Positions 2,539 to 13,947 of a DNA stretch of 44,007 bases are shown one piece after another. The stretch is from a phage. Numbering within the stretch: position 1 is the stretch's first letter; each line of letters begins with the position of its first letter. The stretch is taken from sequence record PX907401.1; one strand, written 5' to 3'. Below the pieces are notes generated by a model. That model did no database searches. It was not told the origin of the DNA and saw only the letters and a program-made list of their open reading frames with translations. Both the position numbers and the translations under genes were made by a program.

Positions 2539-2645
2539 AGTTCAGTCTCCTCGATAGTCTTCGTGTCGCCATCGCACACCGTAGCGATGCCGTTTTGTTC
2601 GGCACATATGCAGGTAGATATACTCCTGCGAGAATCCGCCTATCA

Positions 2646-2915
2646 TCATCTGCTCAGTCTCCAGTGTTTGCCTACCCGCTCAATGGCGGGCTTCCGGCGT
2701 AATGTAATACGGATCCCCATTGGTTGCAAGGAAGTCCGCACCCTGAAATCGTGTTGTGCTGCGAACTGGTGCAGGTAGCGAGTCTGCGTCAACGGCTTAA
2801 CGTCATCGCGATAACACCAGAATACAGAATCCCCCGCATTCGCATTCTCAGCCCATATTCGTATGCAATGCAGGGGGATATGCCACGAAAGCTGTTTTGC
2901 TCGTCTACGGCCCAT
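2646..2915 (-). CDS. Hypothetical protein (89 aa)
   Basis: ORF packed 10 nt after the upstream gene; no recognisable motif. Confidence 0.4.
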   Translation of the reverse strand: MGRRRAKQLSWHIPLHCIRIWAENANAGDSVFWCYRDDVKPLTQTRYLHQFAAQHDFRVRTSLQPMGIRITLRRKPAIERVGKHWRLSR

Positions 2916-2924
2916 TTTGGCCCC

Positions 2925-3251
2925 TTATTTCGCAAGCTGGGCGAATAGTTCGCGCTGGGCTTTAATCCGGGCGACGTTTGTCACTGCCGTCTCGCCGATA
3001 CCGAAGCGATACGCCAGGCGCTCACGGGCAAATGCGAGCGCGTAGTCCTGGATAGCGTTTGCGAGTGGCTGGATCTCCGCCATCGTGTCGAATCGGTCCT
3101 CCAGCATACAGGCGATGGCCTGCTGCGTGACGCGGACAACGGACCACGCTGCCGATAGTCTTTCGACCGCTTCCGCTCCTTCACTGGCGAACTCCGCCGC
3201 TTCTTGCGCCGCCGCCATAGCCATTGCGTAATTCCAGATTAATGCTCTCAT
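2925..3251 (-). CDS. Hypothetical alpha-helical protein (108 aa), first gene of the minus-strand operon
   Basis: ATG at 3251 with GAGGA upstream; promoter-like element just upstream. Confidence 0.55.
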   Translation of the reverse strand: MRALIWNYAMAMAAAQEAAEFASEGAEAVERLSAAWSVVRVTQQAIACMLEDRFDTMAEIQPLANAIQDYALAFARERLAYRFGIGETAVTNVARIKAQRELFAQLAK

Positions 3252-3279
3252 CGTTCAGTCCTCATGTTGGTGTGCGACC

Positions 3280-3308
3280 AATATAGCCGGGTGCTGGGCT
3301 GAATGCAA
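3280..3308 (-). promoter_or_regulatory. Sigma70-like promoter on the minus strand (-35 TTGCAT, 17-bp spacer, -10 TATATT) carrying the ATTGGTTGCAT motif
   Basis: Minus-strand reading ATTGGTTGCATtcagcccagcacccggcTATATT; about 25 nt upstream of the ATG at 3251. Confidence 0.5.
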
Positions 3309-3449
3309 CCAATATTAATCACGCGCATGAAAAAGTTGATCGCTATCAGCTGTGACTGCATTTTTCACTACGCATAATGCATTGGTTGCCGAGTTCATCC
3401 GCGACCGCACTTCGCATCATGCTGCCGTGTATTTTGCGATCCACGGATT

Positions 3450-3623
3450 TTATTCAGTCTCAGACGAGGGGGGCCGTTGACCCCCGTCTAGTCTGAAAGA
3501 CTGGGGTTTGTCCCGCCTGTCCCGCTCCTCTGGAAGCCGCGCCATCCGGGGCGGGACGGGGGTGCTGTCCCGCTTTGTCCCGCCCCTTGTTTGTCCCGCT
3601 TTCTGTCCCGCTTACTTTATGCA
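3450..3623. repeat. Dispersed repeat element, copy A (about 174 bp; second copy at 31279-31452)
   Basis: Near-identical 5' 75 bp and 3' 48 bp shared with copy B; contains six direct TGTCCCGC heptamers plus one inverted, and hairpin-capable segments. Confidence 0.85.
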
Positions 3624-3696
3624 GTTTTATTGCATAACTATTCATTACAGCTACACGACACGGCAACCAATACGACCAGTTAAAAACGCCCAAAAT

Positions 3697-3836
3697 GGCA
3701 ACCAATGCGCGCAAAATTTAACCTTTTAGCGATATGGGAATTCCCATATCGGCAACCAATGCGCGCAAAATTTAACCTTTTAGCGATATGGGAATTCCCA
3801 TATTGGCAACCAATGCGCGCAAAATTTAATCTTTTA
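3697..3836. repeat. Tandem direct repeat, 54-bp unit x about 2.6, each unit with a perfect 18-bp palindrome ATATGGGAATTCCCATAT and a GCAACCAAT motif
   Basis: Units at 3697-3750, 3751-3804 and partial 3805-3836; palindromes at 3732-3749 and 3786-3803; overlaps the primase stop codon (3826-3828). Confidence 0.9.
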
Positions 3837-6090
3837 AATCATCATCGGTCGCTGAAAGCGTGATGGGTATGTTCGTTTTGATGACGATATTAGACGACCC
3901 ATAGATGGCCCCGGTGTGTGGGTCTGTGTAAAACCCAAGCACGCCGCGCTCGACCATATCGTCTATTGCCTTCGTCGATGTGCCACCTTTTGCCAATCCC
4001 GCCTGGCGGACGATTGCCGATTTACTGAATCCGGTATGGTCCGGGTTATCTTCCATCAGTTTTTCCAGTGCCGCATAAAGCACTTTCTCTTTTTCGTTGC
4101 GCGGTCCGGCGGCATTCTCTTCCTTAACTGCGGCTTTGCCAGCGGCCTTTGCTTGCTCAATGGCGAACGGTGCCAGGGCGACCGGTACGAGATAAAGAGT
4201 CTCGTCGCGTGGCGTGGATGCAATTGGCTTGACGTCCCAACCGGCAACCACGTCGCCGAAGTCAGGCCCGGTGCTGGTGGACTGGTGTGATTCGAACGCT
4301 TCGGACTTGCGGAGATCCACCTTAACCTTGCACTTGAGCAGGACGAAGCCGCGCGGCGCTTGCTTGATGCCGTTACGTGCCTTTTCGTGATACAGGTTCA
4401 ATTGGCCCGGCTGATTGTCGTCCGGTTGCTCCAGGAAGAACGCAGAATCGACAGCGCCATGCAGCGCGCCGGACCCACGGGGAGATCTGCTGCCGTTTGC
4501 ACCCTTCGCCGGGTGGTGGATGACGCCCGCACTGCCGCCTGTATTTTCCGCAATGGCCTTCAGCGCTTTGACCACTTCACCCATATCGCTGGCGTTGTTC
4601 TCGTCGAACGGTTTTGCATTGGCGGACCGCAGCGCAACAGTCTGGTTGAGTGAGTCGAACGCCACCAGGCCAACCGGTTCGCCGTTAGCGGTGCGGTTGA
4701 TGAAGCTGATAACTTCGCGCAAGCCGGACTTGTTGGTGATATCCCAGCCGCGTGACTGCAGATCGATAATGTGCAGCTTGTCGAGGTCGTGCTCATATTT
4801 AATCTGCAATGCTTCTTTGCGCTGGTTAGAGGCTTCACCACCTTCCGCATCGAAATAGAAGCAATGAGACTGGACGACCTTCGCACCGCCGAACGGAATA
4901 CCGGCGGCAACCGCGCCCATCTGCCCCAGCACATAGAAAGACTTACCAATGTTCGACTCGCCCGCCATATACCAGGTCGATTTGAAGTTAATCAACCCCT
5001 CGATAATCGGGTCGTGCTTACTGAACAGCGCAACCGGCTCGTTATCCAGATCCGCATCAGTACACACGCCGTACTCGTCGCCGTCTCCGACCGCATCAAC
5101 GATATGTTCATAGCACGATTCCACTTCCTCATCGTCCAGTCCCGGAAGGATGGCGGCGATTTGCTTACGTGACATGTTGTGCGGCTCGACGTTCAGGTGG
5201 TCCGGGATCCCGATAAGACGTAGCGCCAGGTGCTGGTGTCTGTTCAGTTCCGAGCAACACTCGTTGCCGGTGTGCATACACTTGAAACGGATCTCGCCAT
5301 CCTTAACCATGATAGCGGTTGACCCTTCGCCACTATGCAGATGTTCGTTCGGGCATGGCACTTCATAACCCCGACCGGACGACAGCGGTTCGAATCCTGC
5401 CTGGAAGCACCAGTCCAGAATGCCGTCCGCCACGCCGTCATCGCCCTGGGTTAGTTCGCGGCGTACTTTCTCTTTTTCCACTCCCAGCTTATCAGCCAGG
5501 CGAAGCAGACGACGGACGCGGGCACGCTTGCCGTAGTGGCACTTAATAACGGACTGCTGGTGTGGCAGGTACATCAGGCGGTTTGTATCTTTCGTGCAAT
5601 CGTCGAAGTCCACATCTGACAGACCCAGTTGGTGTAATAGTGCATACTGGACGCGGCCCAGGTCTTCAGCCGGTACAGGCTTGTCAGTGAGCACCAGGAA
5701 ACGGGCGCAACGCGTGCCGCCCTTCAGCGGGTGGCGGTCGCCGGTGGTGGTGTGAAATACGTGTTCCAGACCCGAGTCGATGAACGCCTTACGGCAGCGG
5801 CGCAGGGTGCGGGTGTCGGTGCGGTCAATATCAAAGAACAGGATCGAGCGGTCCACCGCACTGGTCTTACGACGCAATCCGTCACTGGTATACGCCACGA
5901 TGCCATCGGCCTTACGCTTGCGGCGCGCATACTCGGCTTTATCTTCCGTCTTGTTGATATGCACCGAGGAGATTTCTTTCGCATCTTTGATAAATTCGAA
6001 AAACTCATCGGTCGTCATCTGGAAGTTTTCCGCCCTGGCTTTTTCGCCTTTTTTAGCGGGTTTTGTTACAGCGAATTTAATCAAGCTCAT
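3826..6090 (-). CDS. Bifunctional DNA primase/helicase (primase-like N-terminal domain, P-loop ATPase C-terminal domain)
   Basis: 754 aa; FFDIDRTD acidic motif in the N-terminal domain; Walker A GESNIGKS and Walker B-like VAFDSL in the C-terminal domain. Confidence 0.8.
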   Translation of the reverse strand: MSLIKFAVTKPAKKGEKARAENFQMTTDEFFEFIKDAKEISSVHINKTEDKAEYARRKRKADGIVAYTSDGLRRKTSAVDRSILFFDIDRTDTRTLRRCRKAFIDSGLEHVFHTTTGDRHPLKGGTRCARFLVLTDKPVPAEDLGRVQYALLHQLGLSDVDFDDCTKDTNRLMYLPHQQSVIKCHYGKRARVRRLLRLADKLGVEKEKVRRELTQGDDGVADGILDWCFQAGFEPLSSGRGYEVPCPNEHLHSGEGSTAIMVKDGEIRFKCMHTGNECCSELNRHQHLALRLIGIPDHLNVEPHNMSRKQIAAILPGLDDEEVESCYEHIVDAVGDGDEYGVCTDADLDNEPVALFSKHDPIIEGLINFKSTWYMAGESNIGKSFYVLGQMGAVAAGIPFGGAKVVQSHCFYFDAEGGEASNQRKEALQIKYEHDLDKLHIIDLQSRGWDITNKSGLREVISFINRTANGEPVGLVAFDSLNQTVALRSANAKPFDENNASDMGEVVKALKAIAENTGGSAGVIHHPAKGANGSRSPRGSGALHGAVDSAFFLEQPDDNQPGQLNLYHEKARNGIKQAPRGFVLLKCKVKVDLRKSEAFESHQSTSTGPDFGDVVAGWDVKPIASTPRDETLYLVPVALAPFAIEQAKAAGKAAVKEENAAGPRNEKEKVLYAALEKLMEDNPDHTGFSKSAIVRQAGLAKGGTSTKAIDDMVERGVLGFYTDPHTGAIYGSSNIVIKTNIPITLSATDDDLKD

Positions 6091-9410: not shown

Positions 9411-9500
9411 CCGCTTAGGCGCAACCAAGTAGATTATCAACCAAGCCGGACGGGGTGGCTCACAATAACCCCGATACATGTGAAAATGAGGAATTGGAAA

Positions 9501-10223
9501 ATGACTAAAGTCAACCTGAAAAATGTGCGCGTATGTTTCCTGAAAATTTGGGAACGTGATACCCCTAAACAGGATGGACAAAAACCGGCATACCGCGCCG
9601 TGATTCTTCTTGATAAAGAAGATCCGCAGGTGGACAAAGTGGAAGCGGCAGCACGCGCAGTGCTCACCGACAAGCTGAAATCCGAGAAGAATGCCGATAA
9701 GTGGATGGACCGCCACTACGCCCAGGATTCTAAGGAATGTGCAGTTCGCGACGGCGACGAGCGCGACGAAGTGACCGAAGAATTCGAAGGCATGTTGTAC
9801 ATCAACGCCAAGTCGTTCAAACAGCCTATCATTCAAACGTCACTCGGCGAGAAGCAGACTGAACAGGGTCTGACCATCGACGGCGACGAGATTGAAGGCC
9901 AGGAGATCTACTCCGGTTGTTATTGCAACGTGTCCCTTGATATTTGGGCGTGGAACAATACCAACGGCAAGGGTCTCGGGGCGGGCTTGCTGGGCCTGCG
10001 ATTCCGTGAAGACGGCGAAGCCTTCGGCGGTGGCGGGTCTTCTTGCTCCGATGAAGACCTGGACAACGACGACGAAGACGAAGCACCGCGCAAGGCTAAG
10101 AAGTCAAAACGTCGTGATGACGATGAGGAAGATGAGAAACCTCGCAAACGTCGTAAGCCACGCGATGACGAAGATGAGGACGACGACGAAGACGAAGCAC
10201 CACGTAAACGTCGCCGCCGTTAA
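9501..10223 (+). CDS. Putative ssDNA-binding protein (DUF2815-like) with repetitive mixed-charge C-terminal tail
   Basis: GAGGA 8 nt upstream of the ATG at 9501 (ORF frame opens at GTG 9480); N-terminus MTKVNLKNVRVCF...; tail DEDEAPRKAKKSKRRDDDEEDEKPRKRRKPRDDEDEDDDEDEAPRKRRRR; sits between exonuclease and polymerase. Confidence 0.6.
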   Translation: MTKVNLKNVRVCFLKIWERDTPKQDGQKPAYRAVILLDKEDPQVDKVEAAARAVLTDKLKSEKNADKWMDRHYAQDSKECAVRDGDERDEVTEEFEGMLYINAKSFKQPIIQTSLGEKQTEQGLTIDGDEIEGQEIYSGCYCNVSLDIWAWNNTNGKGLGAGLLGLRFREDGEAFGGGGSSCSDEDLDNDDEDEAPRKAKKSKRRDDDEEDEKPRKRRKPRDDEDEDDDEDEAPRKRRRR

Positions 10224-10281: not shown

Positions 10282-10452
10282 ATGCGTATTAAAGCCAGCG
10301 AAGTAAAAGTCGGAATGCAAGTATGGTCCAAGCTACTGGGGGAATATTTCACAGTTGCCGAGATTCGCAACAACGGCGAAGAAATCGCCCTGTCCGACGG
10401 CATCTTCTCCATGATCGGCAGCAATGACGCCGTAGTGAGGATAAAGCAATGA
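10282..10452 (+). CDS. Small hypothetical protein (56 aa), translationally coupled to the polymerase (ATGA overlap)
   Basis: MRIKASEVKVGMQVWSKLLGEYFTVAEIRNNGEEIALSDGIFSMIGSNDAVVRIKQ; its stop overlaps the polymerase ATG at 10449. Confidence 0.5.
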   Translation: MRIKASEVKVGMQVWSKLLGEYFTVAEIRNNGEEIALSDGIFSMIGSNDAVVRIKQ

Positions 10453-13400
10453 AAGACTTCGAACGCCTGTTTCTCGACACCGAGACATTTAGCGGGGTGG
10501 ACCTGAAGAAAGTTGGGGCGTACGCCTACGCAGAGCACCCAACCACCGAGATTATGATTTGCACATACGCCATCGACGAGGGCCGCGTGCAGACATGGGA
10601 TTGCACTGAATCCCCCACAATGCCGCGTGAACTGCGCAAAGCGATCCGCCATGTATCCCGCAAGAAAGCAAAAATCGTGATGGCTAACGGCCTCCTGTTT
10701 GACCGCCTGGTTATTCGCGAGAAGTGGGGTATTGACCTGCCGGTAAGCCAGATCGAAGACACCATGATTATGGCCTTTCGCCACGCGCTGCCGGGTAGCC
10801 TCGATATGCAGTGCCAGGTGCTGGGCGTTGACGCAGAGCACGCGAAGGATAAGGCAGGCAAGGCGCTGATTAAACGATTCTGTAAGCCTACCCCTAAGAC
10901 CTACAAAATACGCCGCTACACTCGCGAGACTCACCCGGAAGAATGGGCCAAATTTCTGCGCTATGCCGCGCTGGATATTATCGCAATGCGTGAAGTCTAC
11001 TGGCGCATACCGGACTGGGGTAATACTCCGAAGGAAGATGAAATCCTACTTATCGACCAGTTGATCAACGACCGCGGCTTCTATGTGGACGTTGACCTGG
11101 CGAACGCCGCGATCAAAGCGGTGCAGGCGCATAAGGAAGAATTGAAGGAAGAAGCCTGGGAGCGATTTGGCGGTAAGCTGACCGGCAATGACTTCCTGCC
11201 AATCCTGCGTGATATCGCCCCGGCGTTCACGATCCACAACGCGCAGAAATCCACACTTAACGACCTACTGGAAGACCCGGACTTCCCGGACGAGGGCAAA
11301 GCGCTTATCGAAATGCGCCTCGGTGCGTCATCAACGGCATCTACTAAATACAATCCGCTTGTCAATGGCCTGTCCGCCGATGGTCGCCGCCGTGGTTGTC
11401 TTCAGTATGGTGGGGCAAAGCGCACGCTACGCTGGGCCGGTAAAGGCTTTCAACCTCAAAACCTGGCGCGTGGCGAGTACAGCGACGACCACGAAGGGAA
11501 GATTAAACGCCGCGAGGGTGAAAGCGACGTCTCGTTTTGGGTCCGGTCGCACATGCTCACCAACGGCATCAACTCCCTGTTACGCGGGACCGCACACTGG
11601 GCGTATGACATATCGAAGCTAACGGCCTCGACCGTTCGCGGGTGCATTATTCCGGCGAAGGGCAAGAAGTTTGTCGTAGCGGACTACTCCAACGTGGAAG
11701 GGCGTGGACTTGCCTGGATCGCTGGCGAGAAAACAGCGTTAATGGTCTTTAAGGCCGGTCGCGATATCTATTGCGAGACTGCCGGTAAGATGTTCGGCCT
11801 GGACCCGGACTACATTAAAGCCAACCGCAAGGACTTACGCCAGATCGGTAAGGCTTGCTTGCACCGCCATACCCAAGTATTGACCAATGGCGGGTTCAAG
11901 GATATTATGGCCGTAACATCAACGGATAAAGTATGGAACGGCGAAAAATGGGTGAGTACAAAAGGCGCGCACCTTATGGGGTGGAAACCAGTGATAGACG
12001 TGGACGGGGTCTTGATGACAGAAGACCACAAAATCTTGACGCATTCATGGAAGGAGGCAAGGCAACTCGTTTCAGACAGGTGCACGATGGCCCGCGCCCT
12101 GGCGAGAGGTATGGACGCCTGGTTATCCTGCGCGAATTACCAAAACGACAGGGGCACAGACAACTGCTGGCTCAATGTGATTGCGGAGCGATGCCAGGAC
12201 GCGTCGGGTATGACAACGTCCGAAGGGGTAAAACATCCCAATGCAACCTCTGCGCAATTGAAGCGACAAAGCGGTATCGTAAACAGTATTTTTGCTACGA
12301 TGACGCAATGCCAGACGATGCGCACAGAACGCGGCTGCTCAACCGGCTGTCCGCGGCAATATCACGAACGACAAACCCCCGCGCCAAAGGGTATAAAAAC
12401 TATGGCGGTCGTGGGATTGCCGTATGTGACGAATGGAAAAGAGATAAAAGGTCGTTTCTTCGCTACGTTCAAACGCTGGACGGCTGGGATAATCCAGACT
12501 TCGAAATGGACCGGGTCGATACAGACGGCAACTATGAGCCTGGAAACCTTCGGTTTGTCAGCCGTTCGGAAAACTGCCGTAACCGGCGCAGCGTGCCCGA
12601 GCTTCAGCGAAAGTGCGATGAAGCCCTTACCCGCATTGCTGAACTGGAACGGGAAGTTAACCTATTGCGAGCCGGTTTACGACCTGATTGATGTGGAAGA
12701 CGGAAACCGGTTCCTTATTGCGTCTAAGTCTGGTTTTCTGGTGGCGCATAACTGCGAGCTAGGCTTGGGCTATGGTGGCGGCGTGGCAGCGTTCTTGCAG
12801 TTCGCTAAAAACCTGGGCCTCGACCTGTACACTATGGCGGACGTGATGAAAGGCACGTTCCCGGATCACATTTGGGCGGCGGCGAAACGCGGCTATGAGT
12901 ACGCCCGCATTAACGAAGCGAAACGCCCACCGAAGCCTGGCAAGAAGGACGAGCGACCGACTTACATACTGCCGAAAAACGTATGGCTGACGTGCGACGC
13001 GATCAAACGTATGTGGCGAGAGGCCCACCCGAAGACGGTTGCCTTTTGGGCCGAGCTTGAGGACGCGGTGTTGTGTGCAATCCGCAATCCGGGCAAAGCA
13101 TACTGGGCTGGCGCGAACGTTCGCCCGGATGGCAAGAAAGCGCTCAAGATTGTTCGCACGAAGGCGAAGCACGACCCAACCTTCGACGAGGAGCGCGACG
13201 ACCCGGACGCTGCGGGGTGGTGGTTGAAAATTGAGTTGCCGTCGGGGCGCATCATGAGCTACCCCGGCATCGCGCTGTCTGTCACGACAGAGATTGACGA
13301 GGACACCGGCAAGAAGCGCACCAGCACACGCATTAAATATCAGGGCGAGAATCAGACGACGCGCCAGTGGGGGTTCCAGTACACCTACGGCGGCAAACTG

Positions 13401-13637
13401 ACGGAGAACATCGTACAGGCGTTGTGCCGTGATATTCTCGCATGGTCCATGCCGGGCGTCGAAGCCGCGGGGTATGAAATAGTCCTGTCAGTACACGATG
13501 AACTGATCACCGAAGTGCCCGACACAGACGACTACACGACAGAGGAGCTTTGCGCGCTGATGTGCGACCTGCCTGTTTGGGCGAAAGGCTTCCCACTTGC
13601 CGCCGAAGGTGATTGTATGTATCGCTACCGCAAGTAG
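10449..13637 (+). CDS. Family-A (Pol I-like) DNA polymerase with 3'-5' exonuclease domain, interrupted in motif B by an intein
   Basis: 1062-codon uninterrupted ORF; Exo I LFLDTETFS; motif A VVADYSNVEGRG; motif B RQIGKA / CELGLGYGG split by a 299-codon insert; motif C VHDE. Confidence 0.9.
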   Translation: MKDFERLFLDTETFSGVDLKKVGAYAYAEHPTTEIMICTYAIDEGRVQTWDCTESPTMPRELRKAIRHVSRKKAKIVMANGLLFDRLVIREKWGIDLPVSQIEDTMIMAFRHALPGSLDMQCQVLGVDAEHAKDKAGKALIKRFCKPTPKTYKIRRYTRETHPEEWAKFLRYAALDIIAMREVYWRIPDWGNTPKEDEILLIDQLINDRGFYVDVDLANAAIKAVQAHKEELKEEAWERFGGKLTGNDFLPILRDIAPAFTIHNAQKSTLNDLLEDPDFPDEGKALIEMRLGASSTASTKYNPLVNGLSADGRRRGCLQYGGAKRTLRWAGKGFQPQNLARGEYSDDHEGKIKRREGESDVSFWVRSHMLTNGINSLLRGTAHWAYDISKLTASTVRGCIIPAKGKKFVVADYSNVEGRGLAWIAGEKTALMVFKAGRDIYCETAGKMFGLDPDYIKANRKDLRQIGKACLHRHTQVLTNGGFKDIMAVTSTDKVWNGEKWVSTKGAHLMGWKPVIDVDGVLMTEDHKILTHSWKEARQLVSDRCTMARALARGMDAWLSCANYQNDRGTDNCWLNVIAERCQDASGMTTSEGVKHPNATSAQLKRQSGIVNSIFATMTQCQTMRTERGCSTGCPRQYHERQTPAPKGIKTMAVVGLPYVTNGKEIKGRFFATFKRWTAGIIQTSKWTGSIQTATMSLETFGLSAVRKTAVTGAACPSFSESAMKPLPALLNWNGKLTYCEPVYDLIDVEDGNRFLIASKSGFLVAHNCELGLGYGGGVAAFLQFAKNLGLDLYTMADVMKGTFPDHIWAAAKRGYEYARINEAKRPPKPGKKDERPTYILPKNVWLTCDAIKRMWREAHPKTVAFWAELEDAVLCAIRNPGKAYWAGANVRPDGKKALKIVRTKAKHDPTFDEERDDPDAAGWWLKIELPSGRIMSYPGIALSVTTEIDEDTGKKRTSTRIKYQGENQTTRQWGFQYTYGGKLTENIVQALCRDILAWSMPGVEAAGYEIVLSVHDELITEVPDTDDYTTEELCALMCDLPVWAKGFPLAAEGDCMYRYRK
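11856..12752 (+). other. Intein (protein-splicing element) within DNA polymerase motif B
   Basis: Starts with Cys (CLHRHTQVLTNGGFKDI), TxxH-like block (EDHKILTHSW), ends VYDLIDVEDGNRFLIASKSGFLVAHN followed by +1 Cys; flanks reconstitute the RxxxKxxxFGxxYG motif. Confidence 0.75.
11933..12691 (+). CDS. HNH-type (HNH_3/AP2-like) homing-endonuclease-like ORF in the -1 frame, entirely inside the intein
   Basis: 252-codon ORF; GERYGRLVIL...CDCG...QCNLC (Zn-ribbon-like) and GYKNYGGRGIAVCDEW...DRVDTDGNYEPGNLRFVSRSENCRNRR; the overlapping polymerase frame is also open throughout. Confidence 0.55.
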   Translation: MERRKMGEYKRRAPYGVETSDRRGRGLDDRRPQNLDAFMEGGKATRFRQVHDGPRPGERYGRLVILRELPKRQGHRQLLAQCDCGAMPGRVGYDNVRRGKTSQCNLCAIEATKRYRKQYFCYDDAMPDDAHRTRLLNRLSAAISRTTNPRAKGYKNYGGRGIAVCDEWKRDKRSFLRYVQTLDGWDNPDFEMDRVDTDGNYEPGNLRFVSRSENCRNRRSVPELQRKCDEALTRIAELEREVNLLRAGLRPD

Positions 13638-13668
13638 CGGAAATGTTGCGTTTAACGGAAATAAGATT

Positions 13669-13947
13669 ATGACACCCGAAGGCAAGATACAAAGTCACCT
13701 GATGAAGCTGGTTAAAGCCGTTGGGGGATTCTGCCGAAAACTGGCATGGGAGGGGCGCGCAGGTGCGCCCGACCTGATTATTATCATCAACGGCAAAATA
13801 GTGTTCGTCGAAGTGAAGCGCCAAGGCGGAAAACCGAAGCCGCACCAGGTACGAGAACATGAGCGAATGGCCCGCCGTGGTGCTGACGTTCGCGTCATCG
13901 ACAACATAGCCGACTGTGATTTATTGGTTGCTGAATTGGTCGCTTAA
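13669..13947 (+). CDS. VRR-NUC domain nuclease (PD-(D/E)XK fold)
   Basis: 92 aa from the ATG at 13669 (GGAA about 9 nt upstream); GAPDLIIIINGKIVFVEVKRQGGKPKPHQ motif. Confidence 0.7.
   Translation: MTPEGKIQSHLMKLVKAVGGFCRKLAWEGRAGAPDLIIIINGKIVFVEVKRQGGKPKPHQVREHERMARRGADVRVIDNIADCDLLVAELVA

What the first reader, a model, noticed from the sequence alone, without database searches (positions are those of the whole stretch)
11933..12691. HNH-type endonuclease ORF overprinted in the -1 frame inside the intein
Across the intein, two reading frames are both open for about 253 codons: the polymerase/intein frame and the -1 frame. The -1 frame encodes a convincing HNH_3/AP2-type endonuclease (GERYGRLVIL..CDCG..QCNLC; GYKNYGGRGIAVCDEW..DRVDTDGNYEPGNLRFVSRSENCRNRR). 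In canonical inteins the homing endonuclease domain is in-frame; here it would have to be made by internal initiation (candidate ATGs at 11933, 11948, 12047, none with a good SD) or by frameshifting. Two long ORFs overlapping by chance is very unlikely, so this is either a true overlapping-gene arrangement or a pair of compensating indels.
Basis: partly seen in the sequence, partly recalled or inferred. Interest (0 to 1): 0.9.

Follow-up and report, generated by a model that had tools for sequence, protein, structure and literature searches.

The report
Endonuclease gene hidden inside an intein
A self-splicing protein insert (intein) in this phage's DNA polymerase gene carries a complete second gene in a shifted reading frame, for a homing-endonuclease-like protein, and both frames are kept intact by selection in dozens of distantly related phages.

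Summary
The Pol A gene (10449-13637) contains a 299-codon class-1 intein (11856-12752). Its -1 frame is open for 253 codons (11930-12691).

The nested ORF is a phage HNH-annotated homing-endonuclease-type gene, with PHROG HNH families at E=1.9e-46. It has free-standing relatives in hundreds of phages.

- **Conservation.** In 79 of 80 related loci, down to 40% protein identity, the same ORF sits in the same -1 frame inside a Pol A intein.
- **Selection switches frame.** The intein frame is constrained at both splicing ends (dN/dS about 0.05). The HNH frame is constrained in the middle (0.10), where the intein frame drifts (1.2-1.9) yet never acquires a stop: 0 observed against 5.3 expected per locus.
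- **Start site.** A conserved ATG (11948) lies behind an SD-like GGGAYGG in the family. A promoter-like TTGACC-17-TATTAT (11880-11908) points to independent expression, not frameshifting.
- **Mobility.** Inteins are 98-99% identical between Dhillonviruses whose exteins are 91-96% identical, and about 94% of Dhillonvirus records lack the intein precisely.

The architecture was reported in 2025 for actinophage inteins with a different nuclease, and Sodalis phage SO-1's record already annotates this ORF. I rate it a new variant of a known kind. Nuclease activity is inferred: the canonical HNH histidine is an invariant arginine.

The parts
10449..13637 (+). Family A DNA polymerase precursor gene (1062 codons), single open frame through the intein
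11856..12752 (+). Class-1 intein, 299 aa, inserted in Pol A motif B (RQIGKA|C...HN|CELGLGYGGG)
   Evidence: Boundaries. Precise absence in intein-less Dhillonviruses. The mini-intein profile hits the Neq pol split intein at 1.7e-4 and the Spl DnaX mini-intein at 1.2e-3.
11856..12041 (+). Intein N-terminal splicing region (blocks A and B: Cys1, TEDH), read in the polymerase frame
   Evidence: dN/dS 0.05-0.16 in the intein frame. AF2 pLDDT 72-88 for residues 1-62.
12042..12659 (+). Polymerase-frame 'spacer': translated and stop-free, but unconstrained in amino-acid sequence
   Evidence: Intein-frame dN/dS 1.2-1.9. pLDDT 21-43 for residues 63-268. Only 22 weak hits among 1.84 billion representative proteins. 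Zero stops against 4.0 expected.
12660..12752 (+). Intein C-terminal splicing region (blocks F and G: VYDLIDV ... LVAHN)
   Evidence: dN/dS 0.04-0.05 in the intein frame. pLDDT 68-78.
11948..12691 (+). Nested -1 frame gene, 247 codons plus TGA, for an HNH-like homing-endonuclease-type protein. An in-frame ATG at 11933 would give 252 aa.
11948..12088 (+). N-terminal leader of the nested protein, overprinted on the intein N-splicing domain and weakly constrained
   Evidence: HNH-frame dN/dS 0.6-0.8. pLDDT below 60 for residues 1-45.
12095..12277 (+). Beta-barrel plus CxC...CxxC zinc finger (C77, C79, C99, C102), a CapR-type homing-endonuclease DNA-binding module
   Evidence: Invariant Cys residues. 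The Pfam CapR homology domain matches 18 of 64 homologs but not this protein itself. CapR background from PMC10448857.
12503..12589 (+). Predicted beta-beta-alpha (HNH-like) motif EMDRVDTDGNYEPGNLRFVSRSENCRNRR, with Asp-Arg in place of Asp-His
12593..12676 (+). C-terminal long helix of the nested protein (residues 216-243), a possible dimerisation coiled coil
   Evidence: bZIP and GCN4-like weak hits
11880..11908 (+). Sigma-70-like promoter match TTGACC-17-TATTAT (10 of 12), 40 nt upstream of ATG 11948, inside the intein N-domain coding sequence
   Evidence: The same position scores 9 or more of 12 in 25 of 51 loci. Leu9 is TTG in 23 of 44 loci against 15% of other intein Leu codons, p=8e-7. 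In 13 of 51 loci p<=0.05 against synonymous resampling, compared with 0-2 at shifted control positions.
11930..11947 (+). Upstream region of the conserved start. It derives from the intein motif W(D/N)GxxW, which is SD-like across the family but weak here.
   Evidence: Family mean dG -7.5 against -2.35 for controls; this window -3.9.

Best explanation
This is a composite mobile element. A contiguous class-1 intein sits in motif B of the phage's essential family A DNA polymerase. The space between its two splicing regions is occupied by a free-standing-type homing endonuclease gene read in the -1 frame.

Ribosomes translating the polymerase read straight through in frame 0. They produce an N-splicing region, an unstructured spacer of about 200 residues with arbitrary sequence (the off-frame reading of the endonuclease gene), and a C-splicing region. 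The intein then excises itself and ligates the polymerase. This step is inferred.

Separately, ribosomes start at ATG 11948, a codon created by an A in front of a conserved intein Trp codon. They make a 247-aa protein with four parts:
- a disordered leader;
- a zinc-finger DNA-binding module;
- an HNH-like beta-beta-alpha module;
- a C-terminal helix.

That protein is inferred to cut or nick intein-less polymerase alleles during co-infection. Recombinational repair would then copy the whole intein-plus-gene cassette into the cut allele (homing).

Initiation may occur on the polymerase mRNA. It may also occur on a shorter transcript from a promoter-like sequence embedded in the intein's N-terminal codons (11880-11908).

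Selection therefore acts on three levels of the same DNA: splicing residues at the two ends, endonuclease residues in the middle, and stop avoidance in the polymerase frame through the endonuclease gene's codon choice.
For: **What is shown**
- Both frames are open.
- In 79 of 80 IMG/VR relatives, the HNH ORF of about 250 codons lies in the -1 frame of a 600-1280-codon Pol A ORF. Three further metagenomic loci show the same layout.
- All inteins examined have Cys1 and His-Asn at the C-terminus, with block B TxxH invariant in the aligned subset. The +1 residue is Cys in 49 of 51 loci and Ser in two.
- dN/dS switches frame: intein frame 0.05-0.16 at the ends; HNH frame 0.10 against intein frame 1.2-1.9 in the middle.
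- No intein-frame stop occurs in 51 loci, against 5.3 expected per locus; median per-locus P(0) is 5e-4.
- The HNH-frame product folds confidently (pLDDT above 90 for residues 50-247). The frame-0 reading of the same DNA does not (pLDDT 21-43), while the splicing ends in that same model do.
- The HNH frame has 2221 homologs, against 22 weak hits for the frame-0 middle.
- Free-standing relatives with the same architecture exist in Staphylococcus, Rhizobium and Pseudomonas phages, among 892 phage records.
- Start codon: ATG in 42 and GTG in 13 of 58 loci at the second Trp of W(D/N)GxxWV. Most of the GTG, GTT and CTG loci (the 'MPSR' subfamily) have an ATG two codons later, behind GGAGGA in most of them.
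- The third base before each of the two Trp codons is A more often than the intein's own codon usage predicts (p=0.0013 and p=3e-8).
- SD-like pairing has mean dG -7.5 against -2.35 for controls.
- Mobility: inteins are 98.4-99.9% identical among 7 Dhillonviruses whose exteins are 90-100% (mostly 91-96%) identical. The window's N-extein is 98.6-99.3% identical to an intein-less phage. Between Dhillonvirus and Jerseyvirus, inteins are 83% identical and exteins 61-67%.

**What is inferred**
Protein splicing, nuclease activity, the homing mechanism, and use of the promoter.
Against: - No expression data exist for either product.
- This window's own SD is poor (-3.9).
- The SD-like GGGAYGG and most of the promoter-like match are dictated by conserved intein residues (WDG, VLT, AIV). 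They could therefore be by-products. With the intein's own AT-rich codon usage as background, the -10 codon bias is not significant (Ile17 ATA, p=0.19). Only 13 of 51 loci exceed synonymous resampling.
- The window's promoter score is not above expectation for its amino-acid sequence (p=0.115).
- The 'MPSR' subfamily has no promoter-like match.
- No Pfam HNH model matches.
- The general-base His of HNH_3 is an invariant Arg, including in free-standing relatives.
- The loci are phylogenetically related, so counts across loci are not fully independent.
Confidence: 0.78

Rival explanations
1. Sequencing or assembly artefact. The endonuclease is really in frame with the intein, and two compensating indels in this record create the apparent frame shift.
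For: One related record, Salmonella phage SS3e, does fuse the intein N-region to the HNH ORF (P0006; L020).
Against: The same frame relationship holds in 79 of 80 independent loci and in about 160 cultured-phage records, with intein length constant at 897 nt across Dhillonviruses and Jerseyviruses. The intein frame is kept stop-free against an expectation of 5.3 stops per locus, which only makes sense if it is translated. SS3e differs by two 1-nt insertions and breaks its own polymerase.
Confidence: 0.01
2. The endonuclease is reached by programmed ribosomal frameshifting from the polymerase frame. One version has a -1 shift in and a +1 shift out, giving a canonical bifunctional intein. The other has a -1 shift giving an N-extein-intein-HNH fusion.
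For: The HNH ORF is always in the -1 frame relative to the polymerase. In this window a run of five A's (GAAAAAT) immediately precedes ATG 11948.
Against: No X XXY YYZ heptamer is conserved anywhere between the intein start and the HNH core in 53 loci, and the A-run is specific to the Dhillon/Jersey clade. A shift-in/shift-out model gives no reason for frame 0 to stay open across the middle, yet it does. The HNH frame stays open about 50 codons upstream of its folded core, back to a conserved ATG or GTG, and in many loci a stop lies immediately before that codon. The constant -1 relation is explained by common descent.
Confidence: 0.05
3. The nested ORF is a dead relic of a former endonuclease. 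It is no longer expressed and persists only because the element is young.
For: The window has no good SD. The canonical catalytic His is absent. Decay of intein endonucleases is common (established knowledge of the homing cycle).
Against: HNH-frame dN/dS is 0.10, with synonymous divergence near saturation between clades. The ORF is intact in 79 of 80 loci, down to 40% identity. Invariant residues cluster in the zinc finger and the beta-beta-alpha motif. The Arg-for-His substitution is shared with intact free-standing relatives, so it is a family trait and not decay. The distribution shows recent horizontal spread.
Confidence: 0.03
4. The nested protein is expressed but is not the nuclease that mobilises the element. 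It would be a sequence-specific DNA-binding protein, for example a regulator or a targeting partner for another nuclease.
For: The catalytic His is replaced by Arg throughout the family. No Pfam HNH hit. Relatives are annotated as AP2 or DNA-binding domain proteins. CapR, a relative of such DNA-binding modules, is a domesticated repressor (PMC10448857).
Against: The homing-like distribution needs a site-specific break, and no other candidate lies inside the 897-nt element. The beta-beta-alpha motif and its Asn residues are invariant. PHROG families with this domain are annotated as HNH endonucleases. Free-standing relatives occupy typical homing-endonuclease-gene positions between conserved phage genes.
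Confidence: 0.12
5. The insert is a group I intron carrying an endonuclease gene, as the SO-1 GenBank note says ('type I self-splicing intron').
For: The annotation note in NC_013600.
Against: No Rfam intron family matches at E<=1. The insert is exactly 299 codons, begins with Cys, ends with His-Asn before Cys, has a block B TxxH, and matches Hint-domain and intein profiles. The polymerase frame is selectively kept open through it, which an intron would not require.
Confidence: 0.01

Closest known systems
[quoted passage not shown]
   Same: Both are contiguous inteins whose homing endonuclease is encoded on the same strand in another reading frame ('frame 3') between the splicing blocks. In both, the in-frame reading of that region has no recognisable structure, and the distribution suggests continuing horizontal transfer. 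Both are proposed to have arisen when a free-standing homing endonuclease gene invaded an intein.
   Different: The nuclease family differs: here a zinc finger plus an HNH_3-like motif, with only a weak endonuclease VII PHROG hit at 8e-4. The host gene and phage group differ too: Pol A motif B in enterobacterial Dhillon- and Jerseyviruses and many uncultured phages. [quoted passage not shown] Here the ORF's first 45 codons or so, its start codon and its putative RBS and promoter are overprinted on the N-splicing domain. The paper has no analysis of start codon, SD or promoter, since a text search found none of those terms, and I saw no dN/dS or stop-avoidance analysis in the sections read.
ShiLan-type 'hidden' out-of-frame HNH insertion in a mycobacteriophage DNA methylase (Arsenault et al., Genes 2025, PMC11855218)
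   Same: An HNH endonuclease ORF is hidden in an alternative frame of an insertion that stays stop-free in the host gene's frame. The same open question applies: how is the hidden ORF translated?
   Different: The ShiLan insertion has no splicing domains and is thought to remain as a loop in the methylase. Here the carrier is a bona fide intein that removes the off-frame spacer from an essential enzyme.
Fractured genes: split inteins with a free-standing endonuclease gene between the halves (Dassa et al., NAR 2009, PMC2677866)
   Same: A free-standing-type endonuclease gene is lodged between the N- and C-terminal intein halves of a replication gene. The best structural sequence match of this intein's N-region is the Nanoarchaeum polymerase split intein.
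   Different: Here the intein is not split. The host frame reads through the endonuclease gene, so one precursor is made and cis-splicing is expected. This looks like the contiguous counterpart of, or an intermediate towards, that arrangement.
Canonical bifunctional inteins with an in-frame HNH or LAGLIDADG domain
   Same: Hint-fold splicing ends, insertion in a catalytic motif of an essential gene, and a homing-type distribution.
   Different: In those inteins the endonuclease is a domain of the intein polypeptide. Here it is a separate polypeptide from another frame.
Free-standing phage homing endonuclease genes of the same family (e.g. Staphylococcus phage 812 ORF 812_70, Rhizobium phage RHph_I1_23 HNH endonuclease)
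   Same: The same domain order and motifs: GxRxGxLxV, CxCxCG...CxxC, YxxYGGRGIxVC, and DRIDxDGNYEPxNxR...N, at 27-34% identity over 82-99% of the core.
   Different: Those genes stand alone between other genes, and 812_70 has its own annotated promoter. The nested clade has an extra PDDxHRxRLLNR segment and a leader encoded over the intein.

Membership tests
Class-1 intein | Cys/Ser/Thr at position 1 and block B TxxH | tested here: met
   Cys1 (CLHRHT) and TEDH in the window. C1, T55 and H58 are invariant in the 25-sequence mini-intein alignment.
Class-1 intein | C-terminal His-Asn followed by Cys/Ser/Thr at +1 | tested here: met
   LVAHN|C in the window. HN|C in 49 and HN|S in 2 of 51 loci.
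Class-1 intein | Precise in-frame insertion in a conserved host-protein motif, with intein-less alleles existing | tested here: met
   The 897 nt are absent precisely from about 149 of 158 Dhillonvirus records. The site is Pol A motif B.
Class-1 intein | Hint-fold similarity | tested here: met
   The profile of the N plus C regions hits the Neq pol split intein at 1.7e-4, the Spl DnaX mini-intein at 1.2e-3, and RecA mini-inteins at about 0.03. Pfam Vint and Hint_2 match weakly in 5 of 25. AF2 predicts beta-rich ends with pLDDT 68-88.
Class-1 intein | Protein splicing activity | not testable with these tools
   Inferred from the essentiality of Pol A and the conservation of the splicing residues.
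Canonical bifunctional (homing) intein | Endonuclease domain encoded in frame as part of the intein polypeptide | tested here: not met
   The frame-0 middle has dN/dS 1.2-1.9, pLDDT 21-43 and only 22 weak database hits. The endonuclease-like protein is in the -1 frame.
HNH (beta-beta-alpha-Me) endonuclease | Significant match to curated HNH profiles | tested here: inconclusive
   Pfam gives no HNH family for this protein at E<=0.1, and none among the top families for 64 homologs. PHROG families annotated as HNH endonuclease match at 1.9e-46, 7.9e-23 and 2.7e-22.
HNH (beta-beta-alpha-Me) endonuclease | Beta-beta-alpha fold | tested here: inconclusive
HNH (beta-beta-alpha-Me) endonuclease | General-base His at the end of strand 1 (the 'DH' of HNH_3; from general knowledge of the family) | tested here: not met
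   Asp-Arg is invariant (D188, R189) in 64 homologs and in free-standing relatives.
HNH (beta-beta-alpha-Me) endonuclease | Conserved Asn residues of the motif | tested here: met
   N200, N209 and N212 are invariant.
HNH (beta-beta-alpha-Me) endonuclease | DNA cleavage activity | not testable with these tools
   Inferred only from the homing-like distribution.
CapR-type zinc-finger DNA-binding module of phage homing endonuclease genes | CxC...CxxC zinc-finger motif and a match to the CapR homology domain | tested here: inconclusive
   The four Cys residues are invariant. Pfam PF21817 matches 18 of 64 homologs (best 5.4e-6) but not the window protein itself.
Out-of-frame intein homing endonuclease (Gosselin et al. 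2025) | Same-strand endonuclease ORF in another frame between the intein splicing blocks | tested here: met
Out-of-frame intein homing endonuclease (Gosselin et al. 2025) | Endonuclease VII-like nuclease | tested here: not met
Fractured gene / split intein | Host gene and intein divided into two separately translated ORFs | tested here: not met
   A single 1062-codon ORF in the window, and 600-1280-codon ORFs spanning the HNH gene in 79 of 80 loci.
Group I intron with homing endonuclease gene | Intron RNA structure | tested here: not met
   No Rfam match at E<=1 in 11500-13100.
Programmed -1 ribosomal frameshift | Conserved slippery heptamer at the frame junction | tested here: not met
   None is conserved in 53 loci.

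The most novel reading that the evidence does not exclude
A large and old clade of Pol A inteins carries a complete, autonomous expression cassette for a free-standing-type homing endonuclease. It comprises at least 561 loci in IMG/VR, about 2200 protein clusters and two cultured phage genera. The cassette's promoter, ribosome-binding site and start codon are written into the codons of the intein's own N-terminal splicing domain.

The polymerase frame is threaded through the endonuclease gene purely by codon choice. This would be a stable three-layer code and a living intermediate between 'mini-intein plus free-standing endonuclease' and both canonical inteins and fractured genes. Its nuclease would work without the canonical HNH histidine.
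Probability: 0.4. Interest if true: 0.75.

Novelty: new variant of a known kind. Interest (0 to 1): 0.62.

Why it matters
**Origin of inteins.** The finding gives a well-populated natural example in support of the 'splicing first, endonuclease later' view of intein origins. A free-standing homing endonuclease gene appears to have lodged in a mini-intein without merging frames. The two partners have then co-evolved over long divergence: endonuclease identity falls to 40%, and the host polymerases are barely alignable.

**Overlapping genes.** It is a clean system for studying how two genes share DNA. One frame carries information and the other needs only to avoid stops, and the relationship reverses at each end of the element.

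**Annotation.** In most of the Dhillonvirus and Jerseyvirus records inspected, only the polymerase is annotated and the nested gene is missed. In short metagenomic contigs the reverse happens.

**Applied relevance.** These genera are used as therapeutic and biocontrol phages. A mobile element in their polymerase drives local gene conversion between co-infecting phages.

**Enzymology.** If the Arg-for-His nuclease is active, it defines an uncharacterised catalytic variant of a very common phage protein family, present in 892 phage records.

Tried and rejected
- **Pfam and NCBIfam** scans of both frames found nothing for the intein or for the HNH ORF.
- **PDB sequence searches** with the single HNH sequence and with its 64-sequence profile gave only chance or zinc-ribbon hits.
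- **Foldseek against PDB** gave no meaningful match. The afdb50 library was unavailable.
- **Word-indexed protein searches** with the frame-0 intein and with the mini-intein profile returned only 5 and 4 proteins. Long polymerase precursors seem poorly retrieved, so I do not use those counts as evidence. The exhaustive representative search is used instead.
- **Pfam on free-standing relatives**, tried as a transitive route to HNH_3, found nothing.
- **BLASTP of the HNH-like motif** against SO-1 gp37, a canonical HNH, showed no similarity.
- **ATG 12047 and GTG 12080** as starts are rejected, because neither is conserved in Jerseyviruses.
- **Frameshifting at the GAAAAAT run** is rejected, because the run is not conserved.
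- **Promoter test.** My first version used extein codon usage and overstated significance (21 of 51 loci). I repeated it with the intein's own AT-rich codon usage and with shifted-position controls (13 of 51 against 0-2; Ile17 bias not significant).
- One simulation timed out and was replaced by an exact calculation.
Full report
**What is in the sequence.** The window is a Dhillonvirus-type phage genome. The region 11500-13100 is 97% identical to Sodalis phage SO-1 and Shigella phage EP23. A 1062-codon family A DNA polymerase ORF runs from 10449 to 13637.

Residues 470-768 of that ORF (nt 11856-12752, 299 aa) begin with Cys, contain TEDH, and end with His-Asn followed by Cys. They interrupt polymerase motif B as RQIGKA|C...HN|CELGLGYGGG.

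An artificial intein-less junction matches about 149 of 158 Dhillonvirus records as one uninterrupted piece. The 897 nt are therefore a discrete, precisely bounded insertion. A profile of the N- and C-terminal parts hits solved inteins: the Nanoarchaeum polymerase split intein at 1.7e-4 and the Spl DnaX mini-intein at 1.2e-3. No group I intron is detectable.

In the -1 (+2) frame there is no stop between 11927-11929 and 12689-12691, which is 253 codons. Elsewhere in the polymerase gene that frame has 44 stops in about 809 codons. From that rate I calculate a chance probability of about 7e-7.

**It is not an artefact.**
- Jerseyviruses share the intein at 83% nucleotide identity, have the same 897-nt length, and keep both frames open.
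- A degenerate-pattern scan of IMG/VR found at least 561 relatives. In 79 of the best 80, the HNH ORF of about 250 codons lies wholly inside a 600-1280-codon ORF, always in that ORF's -1 frame.
- Three metagenomic loci reached through distant protein homologs (40-45% identity) show the same layout.
- The single exception, Salmonella phage SS3e, carries two 1-nt insertions relative to its relatives and breaks its own polymerase, which is probably a sequencing error.
- All the large ORFs examined are Pol A genes, with the intein in motif B at two or three neighbouring positions.

**Which frame codes where.** I computed pairwise Nei-Gojobori dN/dS between the window, Jerseyviruses and a third clade. 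The constraint switches cleanly between frames.

| Intein nt | Intein frame | HNH frame |
|---|---|---|
| 0-92 | 0.05-0.08 | about 2.9 |
| 92-225 (HNH leader over the N-splicing domain) | 0.16 | 0.6-0.8 |
| 225-795 | 1.2-1.9 | 0.10 |
| 836-897 | about 0.05 | not calculable (no synonymous differences) |

The middle of the intein polypeptide is therefore unconstrained in sequence, yet it never contains a stop. I held each HNH protein fixed and drew its codons from that phage's own usage. On that basis 5.3 intein-frame stops are expected per locus, with a median P(0) of 5e-4. For this window the figures are 4.0 stops and P(0) = 0.0034. None occurs in any of 51 loci. That can only be selection for read-through of the polymerase frame, achieved through the endonuclease gene's synonymous sites.

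Database and structure evidence agree:
- The HNH-frame protein has 2221 homologs at E<1e-5. The frame-0 middle has only 22 weak hits among 1.84 billion representatives, all inside 700-1350-aa proteins.
- AlphaFold folds the HNH-frame product confidently from residue 50 onwards (pLDDT above 90) and leaves residues 1-45 disordered.
- For the frame-0 intein, AlphaFold gives confident beta-rich ends (residues 1-62 and 269-300, pLDDT 68-88) and nothing in between (pLDDT 21-43). The second alignment was shallow, but the contrast lies within a single model.

**What the nested protein is.** PHROG families annotated as HNH endonuclease match at 1.9e-46, 7.9e-23 and 2.7e-22. Pfam has no hit for this protein. 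The CapR homology domain, a zinc-finger DNA-binding module of phage homing endonuclease genes (PMC10448857), matches 18 of 64 homologs.

The model consists of four parts:
- a small beta-barrel plus a CxC...CxxC finger, with all four Cys invariant;
- a helical region;
- a strand-strand-helix unit over EMDRVDTDGNYEPGNLRFVSRSENCRNRR;
- a long C-terminal helix.

By my recollection, the motif aligns with the HNH_3 consensus (DHIDG..NN...NLR..T..EN). That comparison is a lead and not a test. The His is an invariant Arg here, and also in free-standing relatives. Membership of the HNH superfamily is therefore plausible but not demonstrated, and nuclease chemistry is inferred.

Free-standing relatives with the same domain order exist in 892 phage records. 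Examples are Staphylococcus phage 812 ORF 812_70, which has its own annotated promoter, and a Rhizobium phage gene lying among capsid and other structural genes. This fits an origin by invasion of a mini-intein.

**How the nested gene is probably expressed.** The HNH frame is open about 50 codons upstream of its folded core in every locus. It runs back to a codon aligned with the second Trp of the intein motif W(D/N)GxxWV. That codon is ATG in 42 and GTG in 13 of 58 loci. Most of the GTG, GTT and CTG loci belong to a subfamily with an ATG two codons downstream, behind GGAGGA in most of them. In many loci a stop lies immediately before this codon.

- **Start-codon bias.** The ATG exists only if the codon before Trp ends in A. 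That base is A in 36 of 51 loci against 24.9 expected from the intein's own codon usage (p=0.0013), and a purine in 50 of 51. The same bias at the first Trp is stronger, at 34 of 51 against 14.8 (p=3e-8).
- **SD-like pairing.** Upstream pairing to the anti-SD averages -7.5 kcal/mol against -2.35 for control positions. It comes from the WDG codons (TGGGAYGG), so it cannot be separated from amino-acid constraint.
- **Rejected alternatives.** ATG 12047 and GTG 12080 are not conserved. No slippery heptamer is conserved.

I therefore favour independent initiation at 11948, with 11933 also in frame in Dhillonviruses.

**Possible embedded promoter.** A sigma-70-like match, TTGACC-17-TATTAT, lies at 11880-11908, 40 nt upstream of the ATG. 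The same position scores 9 or more of 12 in 25 of 51 loci.

Most of that score is dictated by the conserved residues VLT and AIV. Codon choice adds a smaller contribution. Leu9 is TTG in 23 of 44 loci, against 15% of other intein Leu codons (p=8e-7). The Ile17 ATA bias is not significant once the intein's AT-rich usage is taken as background (p=0.19). In 13 of 51 loci the score exceeds synonymous resampling at p<=0.05, against 0-2 at shifted control positions. I treat the embedded promoter as a hypothesis with a probability of about 0.4.

**Evidence that the element is mobile.** Among seven intein-positive Dhillonviruses the inteins are 98.4-99.9% identical, while the flanking polymerase sequence is 90-100% (mostly 91-96%) identical. 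The window's N-extein is 98.6-99.3% identical to an intein-less phage (UDS3lw), closer than to almost every intein-positive one. Between Dhillonvirus and Jerseyvirus the intein is 83% identical and the exteins 61-67%. Only 9 of 158 Dhillonvirus records carry the intein.

This is the classic signature of homing. The only conserved, foldable product inside the element besides the splicing domain is the nested protein.

**Comparison with what is known.** The architecture is not unprecedented. [quoted passage not shown] It proposes the same invasion origin. A companion paper describes an out-of-frame HNH hidden in a methylase insertion that lacks splicing domains.

Prior annotations of this particular ORF also exist. 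The SO-1 GenBank record (GQ502199 / NC_013600) annotates gp39 'HNH endonuclease' nested in gp38. UniProt holds the Salmonella phage LPSE1 counterpart as an uncharacterised protein.

New relative to those reports:
- a different nuclease family and a different host gene;
- occurrence in enterobacterial phages and a very large uncultured clade;
- quantitative evidence for frame-switching selection and stop avoidance;
- overprinting of the gene's leader, start codon and possible RBS and promoter on the N-terminal splicing domain.

I searched the held literature for descriptions of this Pol A intein's nested gene and found none. That library is incomplete.

**Verdict.** I classify it as a new variant of a recently described kind. 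It is of moderate to high interest because of its scale, its age and the clarity of the dual-coding signal. The main unknowns are expression, splicing with a 200-residue spacer, and nuclease activity with Arg in place of the canonical His.

Noticed in passing
L021, L023, L052, L054 and other loci (intein junctions); window 11853-11858 and 12750-12776: The same intein-plus-nested-gene family occupies two or three neighbouring insertion points in Pol A motif B. These are GK[ATP]|C[EIV]LxLGY (as in the window), GKVxELA|CG[YF]xGG or GKTTILG|CGYGMG (four residues downstream), and QIGK[IV]A|CLALGY. This suggests site shifts during spread between polymerase lineages.
   Followed up: partly
L004:2563-5558: In this metagenomic phage the Pol A gene is cut into two ORFs (2563-3711 and 3708-5558) by an ATGA stop/start overlap upstream of the intein. 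This could be a genuinely split polymerase or an assembly error.
   Followed up: no
P0147 (211 aa, Logan contig): A related intein N-region (37% identical to the window's mini-intein construct) is inserted at a different Pol A site (YGGKL|C). It has only about 110 residues and no endonuclease insert, so it may be a mini-intein relative or a deleted derivative.
   Followed up: no
L020 (Salmonella phage SS3e), locus positions about 2456 and 2729: Two single-base insertions relative to other Jerseyviruses fuse the intein N-region in frame to the HNH ORF and break the polymerase. The record annotates the result as a 268-aa 'HNH endonuclease'. This is probably a sequencing error.
   Followed up: yes
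window 13637-13670; L001:3705-4307; L091:3705-4307: SO-1 and P-GXEC-L2P5 carry an extra free-standing canonical HNH gene (gp37, 603 nt) between the polymerase and the VRR-NUC gene. The window, AV129, PS2 and Pubbukkers lack it. It is a second, independently variable endonuclease gene at this locus.
   Followed up: partly
window 11856-12041 and 12660-12752 compared with 10449-11855 and 12753-13637: The intein's splicing-domain codons are more AT-rich than the exteins (GC 0.49 against 0.56-0.59) and use TTA, CTT and ATA often. This is consistent with a foreign origin, and it matters as a background for any codon-bias test.
   Followed up: yes
L010, L013, L017 (Jerseyviruses), equivalent of window 11933-11950: In Jerseyviruses the first HNH-frame ATG opens a three-codon mini-ORF (ATG GAG CGG TGA) that ends 4 nt before the conserved ATG. 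This arrangement could allow termination-reinitiation.
   Followed up: no
window 12509-12514 (Asp188-Arg189 of the nested protein); L094:1495-2130; L096:1779-2618: The whole protein family, free-standing members included, has Asp-Arg where HNH_3-type nucleases have Asp-His. The intein-nested clade additionally has a PDDxHRxRLLNR segment with an invariant His that free-standing relatives lack.
   Followed up: partly
window 9480-10223: The Gp2.5-like single-stranded DNA-binding protein gene upstream ends in a long, repetitive tail of alternating acidic and basic residues (DDEDEAPRKAKKSKRRDDDEEDEKPRKRRKPRDDEDEDDDEDEAPRKRRRR).
   Followed up: no
L091 (PQ843332.1, Escherichia phage P-GXEC-L2P5): The record is 88,607 bp, about twice the length of other Dhillonviruses (about 44-45 kb). 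It may be a concatemeric or mixed assembly.
   Followed up: no
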